Below are positions 22,914 through 25,051 of a stretch of 64,000 nt of DNA, one piece after another. The notes below the pieces were generated by a model. That model ran no database searches and was not told the origin of the DNA. It saw only the letters and a list, made by a program, of their open reading frames with translations. The stretch covers positions 28,607 to 92,606 of the forward strand of contig JAUVNS010000016.1 in the NCBI GenBank assembly GCA_030599585.1, given 5' to 3'. The number at the start of each line of letters is the position of its first letter. The stretch's first letter is position 1. A program made the position numbers and the translations under genes. The DNA comes from Promethearchaeota archaeon (lineage in GTDB: Archaea; Asgardarchaeota; Lokiarchaeia; Sigyniarchaeales; SOKP01).

Positions 22914-23288
22914 ATGATCAACTCGACTAATTCTAAAATTTCTCGGGGGATTAAATGTTCCATCTGTCGATCCGGGATTAAAGACCTCAGAACAATGTAT
23001 CAATCAAGGCTAAAATTAGGAGTAATCTGTAAAACTTGTCGGAAACATTTCTCTGAAGACGATATCGAGATGATCGTGAACTTATTTTTTGCGTTTGGAG
23101 GATATTTCGGACAGTTCGATAAATCCGACTTTTCTATGGACGAAGCAATCTTCGAATTTGCAGAAAAGCTATCCGCGGGAGATTCTACTTTTCACGCCCA
23201 GAACGTGAAGATGTGGCACAAAATACTAACTTACGGCATCACACCTAAAGAGTTTTTGGAAGAGTTGTCTGTTTTTGCTAACCAGTAA
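22914..23288 (+). CDS. Zinc-finger protein (CxxC..CxxC, FGGYFG); paralogue of 40360..40740
   Basis: CSIC..CKTC..FFAFGGYFGQ..HK..TYGITP. Confidence 0.75.
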   Translation: MINSTNSKISRGIKCSICRSGIKDLRTMYQSRLKLGVICKTCRKHFSEDDIEMIVNLFFAFGGYFGQFDKSDFSMDEAIFEFAEKLSAGDSTFHAQNVKMWHKILTYGITPKEFLEELSVFANQ

Positions 23289-23413: not shown

Positions 23414-23689
23414 ATGGAAGTAAGCATTATGGATTGGGAGAAATATATTAAAGATTTTGTAACTTATACGGAACATACTAAAAGTGTATCGGTCCTTGAA
23501 ATTGATGAAGGAGGAGAAATAAATAAAGTAGATGTTTTGGATGAAAAGGTTGAAGATATAGGAAAAAAATATTTTACTTGTTTATTATGCAATAAAAGGA
23601 TTAAAGATTCCACAGAAAGTAGTTTATTCCAAATATTTACTGCAAAGAAGATTAAACTTCATTTTGAAAAAAATCATCTTCAAACTTAA
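23414..23689 (+). CDS. Small C2H2-like zinc-binding protein
   Basis: CLLC...HFEKNH. Confidence 0.55.
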   Translation: MEVSIMDWEKYIKDFVTYTEHTKSVSVLEIDEGGEINKVDVLDEKVEDIGKKYFTCLLCNKRIKDSTESSLFQIFTAKKIKLHFEKNHLQT

Positions 23690-23757: not shown

Positions 23758-25051
23758 ATGAGAGATGATAACAAAAAAATTATGTCAGACTTAGACCAAG
23801 TAAAATCGATCAACGCCCGACAGATCAAACTCCTTCAAGAAAGCGGGATTAGCACGGCTGAAGCGCTTGCAATGTCCCCACACAACATCATATCAGAGAT
23901 CGACGGATTAGGCGGTAAAACGGCGAAAAAATTAATTTGGAACGCGAGAAACGCCCTTGGAATGACAGAATTCACGACTGCTTACGATATCGACGAGAAT
24001 ACGGAGTATATTACCACCGGTTCTTCTGAACTAAACAGGATTTTAGGCGGTGGGTTCCAAACGGGTAAACTTACCGAAGTATACGGTCCTTTCAAAAGCG
24101 GGAAGACGAATTTGGCCCATACCATTGCGGTAACCATCCAACTTCCAAAGAAAAAAGGAGGTTTGAACTCGGCTGTTGCTTACATTGACACGGAAAACAC
24201 GTTTGCTAAGGAAAAAATCAAAAGAATCGCCAAGAGATTTGGACTCGATCCAAAAAAAGTACTGTCCCAAATATTTCACGCCAGAATATATTCTTCAGAC
24301 CACCAGATGCAAATGATTCAGAAGGCAGAAACCCTATGCAAGACGAGGAACGTGCGACTTATCGTGGTAGATAGCTTAATGGCTTTAATGAGAGTTGAAT
24401 ACATAGGAATTGGAATGCTCGCTCGTCGTCAAGGAGTTCTCAACAACATGATACACGGGCTTTCTCGAATTGCAGAGACTTACAATTGCGCTATTTTACT
24501 TACCAATCAAGTATCGACCAAAATGATGGGTATGTTTTCAGGAAACGACGCCATAGGGGGAAATAGTGACGAGATATTTCGTCAGTCACTTCTAAATAGT
24601 AGCCCATGGTTGCCACTTCCGTGTCATGTTTAAAACAAAAGGATTTTCAGCAAATAACTCTTTGAAGCGAAGAGCAGTGATAGTAGACGCGCCCGACTTA
24701 CCACCAGACGAAGCTGAGTTCTATATTACAGCCGTAGGTATTGCTGACACAGAAAAAGGAGAAGTTCCGGAAGCGAAAGGGTTGGACTTCGAAGTAGAAG
24801 CGTTGTACGAGGAAGAGCAAGTTGTAGAAGAAGTGTCTATTGAAGAAAGTACCGATTCAGGAGAGTATTCATTAATAGACGTAAAAGGGATAGGAGCCGG
24901 AATGGCAAAAAACCTCATTAAAAACGGAGTTACTTCGGTTGACGCCTTGATTGAATCCGATCCCGAACAACTTGCCTCCAAAATTAGCGGTATCTCCTCT
25001 AAAATGATAAATGATTGGCAAACAAACGCGATTGCTCTTATAAACGCCTAA
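23758..25051 (+). CDS. radA: RadA recombinase, join(23758..24564,24596..25051), 420 aa after removal of the 31-nt intron; carries an extra C-terminal HhH domain
   Basis: N-terminal HhH, GPFKSGKT, IDTENTF, LIVVDS, TNQV. Removing 24565-24595 gives AIGGN|IVAHGCHFRVMFK..RRAVIVDAPDLPPDEAEFYIT..GI, the continuous RadA/Rad51 C-terminus. Confidence 0.9.
24565..24595 (+). other. Candidate bulge-helix-bulge (BHB/BHL) mRNA intron, 31 nt
   Basis: GGAA(24559-62):UUCU(24590-93) 4-bp helix; bulge AU^A(24563-65); bulge/loop AA^A(24594-96); intron stem GUGAC:GUCAC; the cuts restore the frame and the IGGNIVAH motif. Confidence 0.8.

What the first reader, a model, noticed from the sequence alone, without database searches (positions are those of the whole stretch)
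24550..24610. radA is split by a 31-nt bulge-helix-bulge-type mRNA intron whose predicted splicing exactly rebuilds the recombinase
Seen: the ORF track shows RadA broken into 291 aa + 141 aa ORFs in different frames. The junction RNA is GGG GGAA AU^A GUGAC gagauauuucguca GUCAC UUCU AA^A UAGUAGCCCAUGGU. It folds into a 4-bp central helix (GGAA:UUCU, one G-U pair), a 3-nt bulge AUA, an intron stem GUGAC:GUCAC, and AAA opening the opposite bulge/loop. Exons pair further out (GCCAU-A-GGG 24550-58 with CCCAUGGU 24603-10), so the exon side is relaxed (BHL-like). Established: the archaeal splicing endonuclease EndA cuts after the 2nd nucleotide of each bulge and RtcB ligates. Applying that rule removes 24565-24595 and gives GGA AAU AUA GUA GCC CAU = G-N-I-V-A-H, i.e. 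IGGNIVAH, matching Rad51 IGGNIIAH at the end of the L2 ssDNA-binding loop, in a single 420-aa frame. The cut sites predicted from structure coincide with those demanded by protein conservation. The well-known archaeal mRNA intron of this type is in crenarchaeal cbf5; I know of none in a recombinase or in Asgard archaea, but cannot search the literature here. Inference: because 31 is not a multiple of 3, functional RadA would depend on splicing, conceptually like HAC1/XBP1 non-spliceosomal splicing.
Basis: partly seen in the sequence, partly recalled or inferred. Interest (0 to 1): 0.95.

Follow-up and report, generated by a model that had tools for sequence, protein, structure and literature searches.

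The report
Spliced mini-intron in Asgard radA-like gene
A recombinase-family gene of a Loki-type Asgard archaeon is broken by a 31-base insert shaped like the introns archaea cut out of tRNAs; comparison with about 130 related gene copies indicates the messenger RNA has to be cut and rejoined, which is documented inside an archaeal coding sequence for only one other gene (cbf5).

Summary
A 31-nt insert (24565-24595) splits a RadA-family gene. Removing it gives AIGGN|IVAHG, identical to intronless orthologues.

The same 31-nt insert sits at the same codon boundary in 11 of 85 orthologues from four genera of one Promethearchaeota (Loki-type) family, and in 48 metagenome contigs. Across 45 distinct variants:
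- The 4-bp central helix is paired in 100% of cells, and the two intron stems in 96-98%, with many compensatory changes.
- The cuts predicted from this geometry are exactly the ones the protein needs (chance about 5e-4).
- The insert evolves like non-coding RNA (pN/pS 0.71).
- Both exons are as constrained as in intronless genes (0.08-0.14).

Two EndA paralogues (Aeropyrum-like catalytic subunit) and RtcB are present.

- The gene is a RadA paralogue with an extra C-terminal HhH domain; the canonical RadA lies elsewhere and is intact.
- The outer exon helix is not conserved, so the motif is the relaxed HBh' form.
- No conserved "switch" hairpin exists.

No RNA data were available, so splicing is inferred, not seen. 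Earlier notes of this scan had already flagged this intron on other DNA: the C49 copy of this bin and other genomes. It is a new member of the cbf5-type kind.

The parts
23758..24564 (+). Exon 1 of the RadA-like gene: N-terminal HhH domain plus Rad51/RecA ATPase core up to ..AIGGN. The ORF opens at ATG 23758. Orthologues align from about the second ATG at 23782 (MSDLDQ), so that may be the true start.
   Evidence: (PF08423 Rad51 profile positions 7-190 of 244, E 1e-60; HHH_5).
24565..24595 (+). 31-nt intron, phase 0, lying between Asn AAT and Ile ATA. 24566-24596 is an equivalent register.
   Evidence: its removal gives the sequence of the intronless orthologues. The intronless L014, nested among intron-bearing genes, reads GGAAAT|ATAGTAGCC.
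24559..24562 (+). 5' strand (GGAA, exon 1) of the 4-bp central helix H.
   Evidence: Columns 15-18 pair with 46-49 in 180 of 180 cells. Pair 17-47 is A-U 36, G-C 8, G-U 1. The Gly codon here is GGA or GGG in 11 of 11 intron-bearing genes, against 45 of 74 intronless genes.
24563..24565 (+). 3-nt bulge AUA holding the 5' splice site, with the cut between 24564 and 24565.
   Evidence: Sequence. It is conserved as A-Y-W in all variants. The rule 'cut after the 2nd bulge nucleotide' is from established knowledge of BHB introns.
24566..24589 (+). Intron hairpin. It has the inner helix h' (GUGAC 24566-70 with GUCAC 24585-89), a small internal loop, an apical 3-bp stem (GAU 24573-75 with GUC 24581-83) and a 5-nt loop.
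   Evidence: h' is 96.4% paired, with 3 of 5 pairs showing double changes. The apical stem is 98.5% paired; pair 29-39 is G-C 22, U-A 14, C-G 8. RNAalifold finds the same helices unaided.
24590..24593 (+). 3' strand (UUCU, intron) of the central helix H.
   Evidence: The variants UCUC and UUCC keep the pairing with GGGA and GGAA.
24594..24596 (+). AAA holding the 3' splice site, with the cut between 24595 and 24596, two nucleotides after H. It is not closed by a conserved exon helix, so this side is an open loop (relaxed form).
   Evidence: Columns 12 and 55 are both invariant G, so a canonical outer helix cannot form.
24596..25051 (+). Exon 2: IVAHGCHFRVMFKTKGF.. (the end of the RecA core), an acidic linker and a second, C-terminal HhH domain. 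The stop codon is 25049-25051.
   Evidence: Rad51 profile 198-243 of 244; HHH_5 E 3e-10; pN/pS 0.08 over the first 55 codons in the spliced frame.

Best explanation
The 31 nucleotides 24565-24595 are an archaeal tRNA-type (bulge-helix-bulge family, relaxed HBh' form) intron inside the coding sequence of a RadA-paralogue mRNA. In the transcript, exon bases GGAA pair with intron bases UUCU to form the 4-bp central helix. The intron's own hairpin supplies the inner helix. The 5' splice site lies in the 3-nt bulge AU|A, and the 3' splice site lies two bases after the central helix (AA|A). The heteromeric splicing endonuclease EndA cuts both sites. RtcB joins the exons, and probably circularises the 31-mer. 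This yields one open frame of about 416-424 aa that reads ..AIGGN-IVAHG.. Without removal, translation ends after 291 aa and lacks the last core strands. What is shown here: the insert, its geometry, its conservation with covariation, selection on the spliced frame, and the presence of the enzymes. What is inferred: the cleavage and ligation themselves.
For: (1) The cuts predicted from structure equal the junction required by orthologues. The chance for fixed ends is 2.4e-4 per register.
(2) The same 31-nt insert sits at the same site in 11 of 85 orthologues from genera g1, g16, g19 and g22. All 11 are full length after removal. It also occurs in 48 metagenome contigs and 9 GTDB contigs, all from Promethearchaeota MAGs.
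(3) In 45 distinct variants, H is 100% paired, h' 96.4% and the apical stem 98.5%. There are 57 cells with changes on both sides, against 18 in shuffles, and slid controls are 27-49% paired. RNAalifold recovers the helices.
(4) The exon wobble base in H is constrained only where the intron is present (Fisher p = 0.013; kin are not independent).
(5) The insert read in frame 0 has pN/pS 0.71, with 29 peptides among 45 sequences. In the 11 genes found through exon 1 alone, exon 1 has 0.14 and the exon 2 core 0.08, the same as intronless genes at 0.14 and 0.09. For L009 against L027, exon 2 has pS 0.42 and pN 0.023.
(6) In at least 7 species genomes the intron-bearing gene is the only copy of this paralogue found.
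(7) Presence and absence alternate among close relatives, needing at least 5 changes on the tree, and an intronless allele lies inside an intron-bearing clade. This is what exact loss or gain of an intron would give.
(8) Two EndA paralogues are present. One keeps Tyr/His/Lys and is closest to the Aeropyrum pernix and Sulfolobus tokodaii enzymes. RtcB is also present, both here and in 5 of 5 intron-bearing genomes checked. Asgard EndA is reported as the (alpha-beta)2 type with the loop that gives broad specificity (PMC5829648). cbf5 introns of 16-44 bp with relaxed motifs are spliced by such enzymes (PMC2738675).
(9) The insert is real DNA. An independent (Logan) assembly of the probable source run carries it with 0 differences. 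A run from another study holds a piece that starts inside the insert at 24568 and has 6 differences over 201 nt.
Against: No transcript, circular intron or peptide was seen; no RNA run was listed. The 3' site has no closing exon helix, so cleavage there relies on the broad specificity inferred for Asgard EndA, which was not tested. On the single sequence the fold energy is unremarkable, and the minimum-energy fold uses another inner hairpin. Most variable stem positions are third positions of frame-0 codons, so part of the 'covariation' could in principle be synonymous drift. The radical changes in the loop codons and the double non-synonymous change at pair 22-45 argue against that. The metagenome set was collected with a pattern that fixed some columns (24, 25, 42, 43, 46, 50-53 and the first exon-2 codons). 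Only the free columns count as tests.
Confidence: 0.85

Rival explanations
1. The ribosome handles the insert. Either it hops from a take-off codon to a matching landing codon (as in T4 gene 60 or mitochondrial byps), or a +1 frameshift occurs after ten extra codons are translated.
For: The insert is short, forms a hairpin right after the last good codon, and AAU occurs both at the junction (24562-64) and 33 nt later (24595-97).
Against: AAU to AAU is 33 nt, so a hop resumes in frame 0 (SSPW..), not in the conserved frame. The triplet before the required resume codon is UAA or CAA, which does not match AAU or AAC. No slippery +1 site is conserved (CUA-A, UCA-A, CCA-A). Ten extra residues would fall between GGN and IVAH, and these codons evolve at pN/pS 0.71. 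The H helix and the exact BHB spacing have no role in this model.
Confidence: 0.04
2. The gene is a pseudogene: a dead copy broken by a frameshifting insertion.
For: The frame is broken. The bin holds an intact, intronless homologue (C20) and a canonical RadA (C24).
Against: All 11 insert-bearing copies keep both exons open and full length. Their pN/pS (0.14 and 0.08) equals that of intact orthologues. In at least 7 genomes it is the only copy. The insert length is invariant at 31 nt in 45 variants, with compensatory changes. C12, C49 and C20 are syntenic over tens of kb at 75-88% identity, so they look like co-binned relatives rather than spare copies.
Confidence: 0.03
3. The gene is split, with two polypeptides made separately: 291 aa, and 141 aa starting from ATG 24626.
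For: An ATG (the conserved Met of FRVMFKTKGF) opens the second ORF.
Against: The 30 nt between the insert and that ATG encode IVAHGCHFRV, a core strand. Across the 11 insert-bearing genes found through exon 1 alone, whose exon 2 was not used to find them, this stretch reads IVAHGCHFRV in every copy despite nucleotide differences, and exon-2 codons 6-55 have pN/pS 0.08 in the spliced frame. In the larger 45-variant set the same nucleotides read in frame 0 give pN/pS 1.48 and 15 different peptides; the first five spliced-frame codons of that set were fixed by the search pattern and are not a test. Neither product of a split gene would be selected that way.
Confidence: 0.02
4. The insert is an assembly or sequencing artefact, or a small mobile DNA element.
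For: It comes from a metagenome bin with 8.9% contamination. A partial direct repeat, AAATAGT, lies at both ends.
Against: Independent assemblies hold it, as do 57 other public contigs from several studies. No other copy of the 31-mer exists in the 4.85-Mb bin apart from the C49 homologue. The repeat is imperfect in other variants, and removing one repeat unit (33 nt) gives the wrong frame.
Confidence: 0.01

Closest known systems
cbf5 pre-mRNA intron of Desulfurococcales and Sulfolobales (Watanabe 2002; Yokobori 2009, PMC2738675)
   Same: A short intron (16-44 bp) lies inside a coding sequence and often has a relaxed BHB motif. It is cut by a heterotetrameric EndA. It has a patchy presence among relatives, with gain and loss. 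It interrupts a functionally critical site, so it must be removed.
   Different: The phylum differs (Promethearchaeota/Asgard rather than Crenarchaeota) and so does the gene (a RadA paralogue). Here the length is fixed at 31 nt, always frameshifting, and the covariation sample is large. Splicing of cbf5 was shown experimentally; here it is not.
Non-canonical tRNA introns of the HBh' type in TACK and Asgard archaea (Marck & Grosjean 2003; PMC5829648; bioRxiv 10.64898/2026.10.13.758758)
   Same: The geometry is the same: a 4-bp helix, a 3-nt bulge, an intron hairpin, and the 3' cut two nucleotides after the helix. The size class is the same; tRNA genes of this bin carry roughly 17-30-nt inserts of that shape. 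The enzymes are presumed to be the same.
   Different: The host RNA is an mRNA, so no tRNA body helps recognition. The exon half of the helix is built from codons (Gly-Asn).
BHB intron in the 5' UTR of HVO_1309, Haloferax volcanii (PMC7714728)
   Same: It is an mRNA substrate of archaeal EndA, confirmed there by circRNA-seq and in vitro cleavage.
   Different: It lies in the untranslated leader, not in the coding sequence. It is 46 nt long, is cut by an alpha'2 enzyme, and no frame depends on it.
HAC1/XBP1 unconventional splicing (IRE1 cut, tRNA ligase/RtcB joining)
   Same: A small, frameshifting, non-spliceosomal intron (26 nt in XBP1) has cut sites in RNA loops, and the exons are joined by RtcB in animals. 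The protein changes with splicing.
   Different: The nuclease is IRE1, not EndA. That system is regulated by stress, and no evidence of regulation exists here. It is an analogy of logic only.

Membership tests
Archaeal EndA-dependent (bulge-helix-bulge) intron | Strict hBHBh' form: a 4-bp central helix with a 3-nt bulge on each strand, each closed by an outer helix. | tested here: not met
   The central helix and the 5' bulge are canonical. The 3' site is followed by an open loop. Columns 12 and 55 are both invariant G, and the more distant exon pairing is 81% paired without compensation.
Archaeal EndA-dependent (bulge-helix-bulge) intron | Relaxed HBh' form: a 4-bp helix H, a 3-nt bulge and an inner intron helix h', with the second cut two nucleotides 3' of H. 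| tested here: met
   GGAA pairs with UUCU, the bulge is AUA, and GUGAC pairs with GUCAC. H is 100% paired and h' 96.4% in 45 variants, with compensatory changes. The chance of this geometry is 2.4e-4.
Archaeal EndA-dependent (bulge-helix-bulge) intron | The cut positions given by the motif produce the functional mature RNA. | tested here: met
   The predicted cuts at 24564|65 and 24595|96 give AIGGN|IVAHG, identical to 74 intronless orthologues and aligned without a gap to Rad51 and RadA structures.
Archaeal EndA-dependent (bulge-helix-bulge) intron | The host encodes a splicing endonuclease able to cut relaxed motifs, and an RtcB ligase. | tested here: met
   There are two PF01974 ORFs of 200 and 201 aa. 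One keeps the catalytic Tyr/His/Lys and has A. pernix 3p1z_B as its best PDB match; the other lacks the His. RtcB is present. The same holds in 5 of 5 intron-bearing genomes. Broad specificity is taken from PMC5829648 and was not assayed.
Archaeal EndA-dependent (bulge-helix-bulge) intron | Observed cleavage and ligation: a spliced junction in RNA, a circular intron, or in vitro cutting. | not testable with these tools
   No RNA run was listed for this sequence. Only DNA contigs could be laid.
RadA/Rad51 recombinase (canonical archaeal RadA) | Scores above the curated cut-offs of the RadA equivalog models, and has the architecture HhH + RecA core only. | tested here: inconclusive
   The intronless orthologue scores NF003301 325.6 bits (cut-off 259, passes) and TIGR02236 284.8 bits (cut-off 361, fails). 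It has about 100 extra C-terminal residues with a second HhH domain. The bin's canonical RadA scores 448 and 428 bits. I file it as a RadA paralogue.
Programmed translational bypass (T4 gene 60, mitochondrial byps) | Matching take-off and landing triplets placed so that decoding resumes in the correct frame. | tested here: not met
   The AAU..AAU pair is 33 nt apart and resumes in the wrong frame. The triplet before the needed resume codon is UAA or CAA.

The most novel reading that the evidence does not exclude
This is one visible member of a whole population of EndA/RtcB-spliced mini-introns (about 30 nt) in protein-coding genes of this Promethearchaeia family. Some sit in essential single-copy genes, and they are gained and lost often. 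On this reading, routine mRNA splicing by the tRNA-splicing machinery exists in close prokaryotic relatives of eukaryotes. That insert is absent from 21 orthologues and present, with a different sequence, in one other genome. I also confirmed that uppS carries a 30-nt stop-containing insert inside DGN|NRRW. Earlier notes of this scan list further cases (elf1, a hydrolase, an RHH regulator), which I did not test.
Probability: 0.55. Interest if true: 0.92.

Novelty: new member of a known kind. Interest (0 to 1): 0.78.

Why it matters
In the papers I could search, endonuclease-dependent introns inside archaeal coding sequences are documented for a single gene, cbf5 of Crenarchaeota, plus one 5'-UTR case in Haloferax.

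A second, well-supported case would matter for three reasons:
- It lies in Asgard archaea and in a recombinase-family gene, with 45 natural variants that already map the RNA determinants. That would show the tRNA-splicing enzymes act on mRNAs in the lineage closest to eukaryotes.
- It gives a natural substrate set for defining what an Asgard (alpha-beta)2 EndA recognises outside a tRNA body.
- It has a practical consequence for annotation. Such genes are called as two ORFs or as pseudogenes, so gene content and 'missing' functions in Asgard MAGs are misjudged.

It also bears on how short, frameshifting, RtcB-joined introns such as XBP1's could have arisen.

Tried and rejected
- **RNA evidence.** No RNA holder was listed for the gene, and only DNA contigs could be laid. 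Expression and splicing are therefore untested.
- **Genome-wide scan.** I scanned the bin for the HBh' geometry joined to long ORFs on both sides. It gave 108 hits against 138 for a decoy geometry, so it was uninformative. Four of the five best-looking hits proved to be ordinary gene boundaries by Pfam: Ras|nitroreductase, HAD|GNAT, FAD-oxidase|ETF, and unknown|Ribo_biogen_C. Only the two radA-like copies and a 33-nt candidate in an alpha/beta-hydrolase gene (C32:105846-105878) remained plausible.
- **Alternative inner hairpin.** The window's minimum-energy fold (UGACGAG/UUCGUCA), proposed elsewhere in the scan as a splicing switch, is only 65% paired across variants. I rejected it as a conserved feature.
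- **Outer exon helix.** It is not conserved.
- **uppS and rps3.** I tried to fit the uppS insert to the same geometry and failed. The rps3 insert fits in this bin only with one mismatch in the central helix, and less well in G014.
- **Repeats and annotated RNAs.** A search for other copies of the 31-mer in the bin found none. Rfam and ARAGORN found nothing in the window.
- **Literature.** Searches for an Asgard or radA BHB mRNA intron found nothing.
Full report
**What is there**

The window holds a RadA-family gene on the + strand. It is read by the ORF finder as two ORFs in different frames: 23758..24633 (291 aa) and 24626..25051 (141 aa). By Pfam, exon 1 covers Rad51 profile positions 7-190 of 244 plus an N-terminal HhH domain. 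The part after the break continues at positions 198-243 and adds a second HhH domain.

Deleting 24565-24595 (31 nt) joins GGA AAT to ATA GTA GCC and gives ..AIGGN|IVAHGCHFRVMFKTKGF... The register 24566-24596 is equivalent. This is the sequence of the intronless orthologues, letter for letter. It aligns without a gap to pIGGhILAH of Pyrococcus RadA and pIGGNIMAH of yeast Rad51.

**Is the fold more than chance?**

On the single sequence the energy is ordinary (z = -1.0). The minimum-energy fold keeps GGAA:UUCU but prefers another inner hairpin. The case rests on geometry and comparison.

The geometry of archaeal tRNA-type introns places each bulge 3' of its strand of a 4-bp helix. Exon 1 must therefore end with [4 helix nt + 2], and the intron with [4 helix nt + 2]. 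Here GGAA+AU and UUCU+AA do exactly that, with a 5-bp intron stem starting right after the 3-nt bulge. Only 2.4e-4 of all 31-nt segments of this genome satisfy that geometry at fixed ends.

**Relatives**

A search of 135 genomes of the family with exon 1 alone found the gene in 81. I fetched 89 of these loci and could read the junction in 85 gene copies.
- 11 carry an insert of exactly 31 nt at exactly this codon boundary: 7 copies in genus g1 (two in this bin, on C12 and C49), 1 in g19, 2 in g22 and 1 in g16.
- All 11 are open and full length (374-424 aa) once the 31 nt are removed.
- A pattern scan that left the variable stem positions free found 48 more contigs in metagenomes and 9 in GTDB genomes, all labelled Promethearchaeota or Promethearchaeia, e.g. 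Loki_b31 and Loki_b32. Together these give 45 distinct 71-nt variants.

**Covariation**

On these 45 variants:
- The central helix is paired in 180 of 180 cells. Pair 17-47 is A-U 36, G-C 8, G-U 1 and never A-C; column 17 is the wobble base of an exon Gly codon.
- The inner helix is 96.4% paired, with double changes at three of five pairs.
- A further apical 3-bp stem is 98.5% paired. Pair 29-39 is G-C 22, U-A 14, C-G 8.
- There are 57 cells with changes on both sides, against 18 ± 3 in shuffles.
- Sliding the partners by 1-3 columns drops pairing to 27-49%.

RNAalifold finds the same three helices by itself.

In intron-bearing genes the Gly codon in the helix is always GGA or GGG (11 of 11). 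In intronless orthologues 29 of 74 use GGT or GGC.

Two things are not conserved. The alternative inner hairpin of this copy is 65% paired. The motif is thus the relaxed HBh' form, with the 3' site in an open loop.

**Selection**

Read in frame 0, the ten insert codons give 29 different peptides in 45 sequences, with pN/pS 0.71.

In the 11 genes found through exon 1 only, so that exon 2 was not used to find them:
- Exon 1 has pN/pS 0.14 and the first 55 codons of exon 2 have 0.08, read in the frame reached only by removing 3n+1 nt.
- Intronless genes of the genus give 0.14 and 0.09.
- The window copy and its C49 sister differ at pS 0.42 but pN 0.023 in exon 2.

This excludes a decaying pseudogene, read-through in frame 0, and a two-polypeptide split gene. 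The 30 nt between the insert and the internal ATG encode IVAHGCHFRV and change only synonymously in that frame.

A ribosomal hop is excluded by frame. The AAU..AAU pair is 33 nt apart and resumes in the wrong frame.

**Distribution**

On the protein tree the gene follows the genera. The intron is scattered, with at least 5 changes forced by well-supported branches and 8 by parsimony. An intronless allele (L014) sits inside an intron-bearing clade and reads exactly GGAAAT|ATAGTAGCC. In at least 7 species genomes the intron-bearing gene is the only copy found.

**The bin**

C12 (the window), C49 and C20 carry three copies, the first two with the intron and the third without. The three loci are syntenic over tens of kilobases, at 88% (C12 against C49) and 72-80% identity (against C20). 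Other small contigs also mirror C12. With 8.9% contamination, these are most simply co-binned related populations. The 'intact spare copy' in this bin should therefore not be assumed to share a cell with the window's gene.

**Is the insert real DNA?**

Logan's independent assembly of the probable source run covers 24461-24950 with no difference. The same run holds the C49-type allele without gaps. A run from another study holds a piece that starts at 24568, inside the insert, and runs to 24768 with 6 differences. Intronless relatives also occur in these communities.

**Enzymes**

The bin encodes two EndA paralogues. The first is a 200-aa ORF that keeps the catalytic Tyr, His and Lys; its best PDB matches are the Aeropyrum pernix and Sulfolobus tokodaii enzymes. 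The second is a 201-aa paralogue without the His. The bin also encodes one RtcB. The same set is present in 5 of 5 intron-bearing genomes checked.

Published work assigns Asgard archaea the (alpha-beta)2 EndA with the loop that confers broad specificity, and notes that only such enzymes cut non-canonical motifs (PMC5829648).

tRNA genes of this bin carry inserts of about 17-30 nt with the same geometry. This fits a recent preprint on heavily interrupted Asgard tRNA genes, which does not treat mRNAs.

**What the gene is**

It is not the canonical RadA. The intronless orthologue passes one RadA model (NF003301, 325 bits against a cut-off of 259) but fails TIGR02236, and it has about 100 extra C-terminal residues. 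A canonical RadA (448 and 428 bits) lies uninterrupted at C24:157941-158963. The dependence on splicing therefore concerns this paralogue, whose role is unknown.

**Comparison with what is known**

The closest system is the cbf5 pre-mRNA intron of Crenarchaeota. It is 16-44 bp long, often has a relaxed motif, is cut by a heterotetrameric EndA, is patchy in distribution, and must be removed (PMC2738675). A 2020 study states that cbf5 was then the only further BHB intron known in an archaeal mRNA, and adds a 5'-UTR intron in Haloferax (PMC7714728).

Six literature searches found no report of such an intron in radA or in Asgard mRNAs. I therefore class this as a new member of a known kind.

Earlier notes of this scan had already flagged the same intron in the C49 copy and in other genomes, and similar inserts in other genes of this bin.
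- **uS3 (rps3).** I checked this myself. The bin's only uS3 gene has a 30-nt stop-containing hairpin insert (C11:38119-38148). It is absent from 21 orthologues and present in a different version in G014. In this bin an HBh'-like reading, with one mismatch in the central helix, predicts the orthologue-defined junction.
- **uppS.** The gene has a 30-nt stop-containing insert in DGN|NRRW, which I could not fit to the geometry.

**Limits**

No RNA was seen. Cleavage at the open 3' site is inferred from enzymes of other archaea. The metagenome variants were collected with a pattern that fixed some columns. Related sequences are not independent, so the shuffle statistics overstate significance.

Noticed in passing
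window 23758-25051; G000:C49:49400-50693; G000:C20:270839-272082: The three copies of the gene in this bin lie in syntenic neighbourhoods. C12 against C49 is about 88% identical, and both against C20 are 72-80% identical, over more than 15 kb. Other small contigs (C38, C51, C6, C23) also mirror C12. The bin (8.9% contamination) probably mixes two or three related populations, so copy numbers in it are unreliable.
   Followed up: partly
window 24750-25048: This RadA paralogue has an acidic linker and a second, C-terminal helix-hairpin-helix domain (HHH_5, E 3e-10) after the RecA core. The architecture is kept in 81 of 135 genomes of the family. Its function is unknown.
   Followed up: partly
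G000:C11:38119-38148 (- strand), locus L171: The only uS3 (rps3) gene of the bin is interrupted, between LE and MPQIEVEEV, by a 30-nt insert that has two in-frame stops and a 10-bp hairpin. 21 orthologues lack it, and G014 (L176) has a different 30-nt insert at the same place.
   Followed up: partly
G000:C41:14085-14114 (- strand), locus L169: The only uppS gene has a 30-nt stop-containing hairpin insert inside the catalytic DGNRRW motif (..LILDGN*KYFLLLNGNRRW..). Seven registers of removal give the same protein. I could not fit a canonical helix-bulge geometry.
   Followed up: partly
whole bin G000; e.g. C1:16187-16289, C3:8762-8863, C4:25233-25335: ARAGORN finds only 21 tRNA genes in a 4.85-Mb, '100% complete' bin. 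Several calls become clean tRNAs (Ala-GGC, Glu-CTC, Ser-GCT) only after removal of inserts of about 17-30 nt in the D-arm region that have the same helix-bulge-hairpin shape. The tRNA genes are heavily interrupted.
   Followed up: partly
window 24561-24567 and 24594-24600: A 7-nt direct repeat, AAATAGT, brackets the intron at a spacing of 33 nt. It is imperfect in other variants (AAATCGT, AAATAAT, GAATTGT). It may say something about how the intron arose, or it may be a by-product of the exon and motif constraints.
   Followed up: no
G000:C20:270841-270860 (locus L003 about 1498): The intronless C20 copy lacks the ATG used by the window copy (ATT ATG TCA has become ATT TCA). Its frame opens with KISDLDQ and has no ATG, GTG or TTG at that point, so its start codon is unclear.
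   Followed up: no
window 22914-23288 and 23414-23689: Two small ORFs lie just upstream of the gene and carry paired Cys motifs (CxxC..CxxC, and a C2H2-like CxxC..HxxxxH). They may be zinc-ribbon or zinc-finger proteins. They were not examined.
   Followed up: no
G000:C32:105846-105878 (- strand), locus L164: My motif scan recovered a 33-nt insert with clean geometry (UCCU CAA UUUCU..AGAAA GGGA AA) just upstream of an alpha/beta-hydrolase domain, whose Pfam match starts at profile position 12. It is probably the hydrolase intron noted earlier by the scan.
   Followed up: partly
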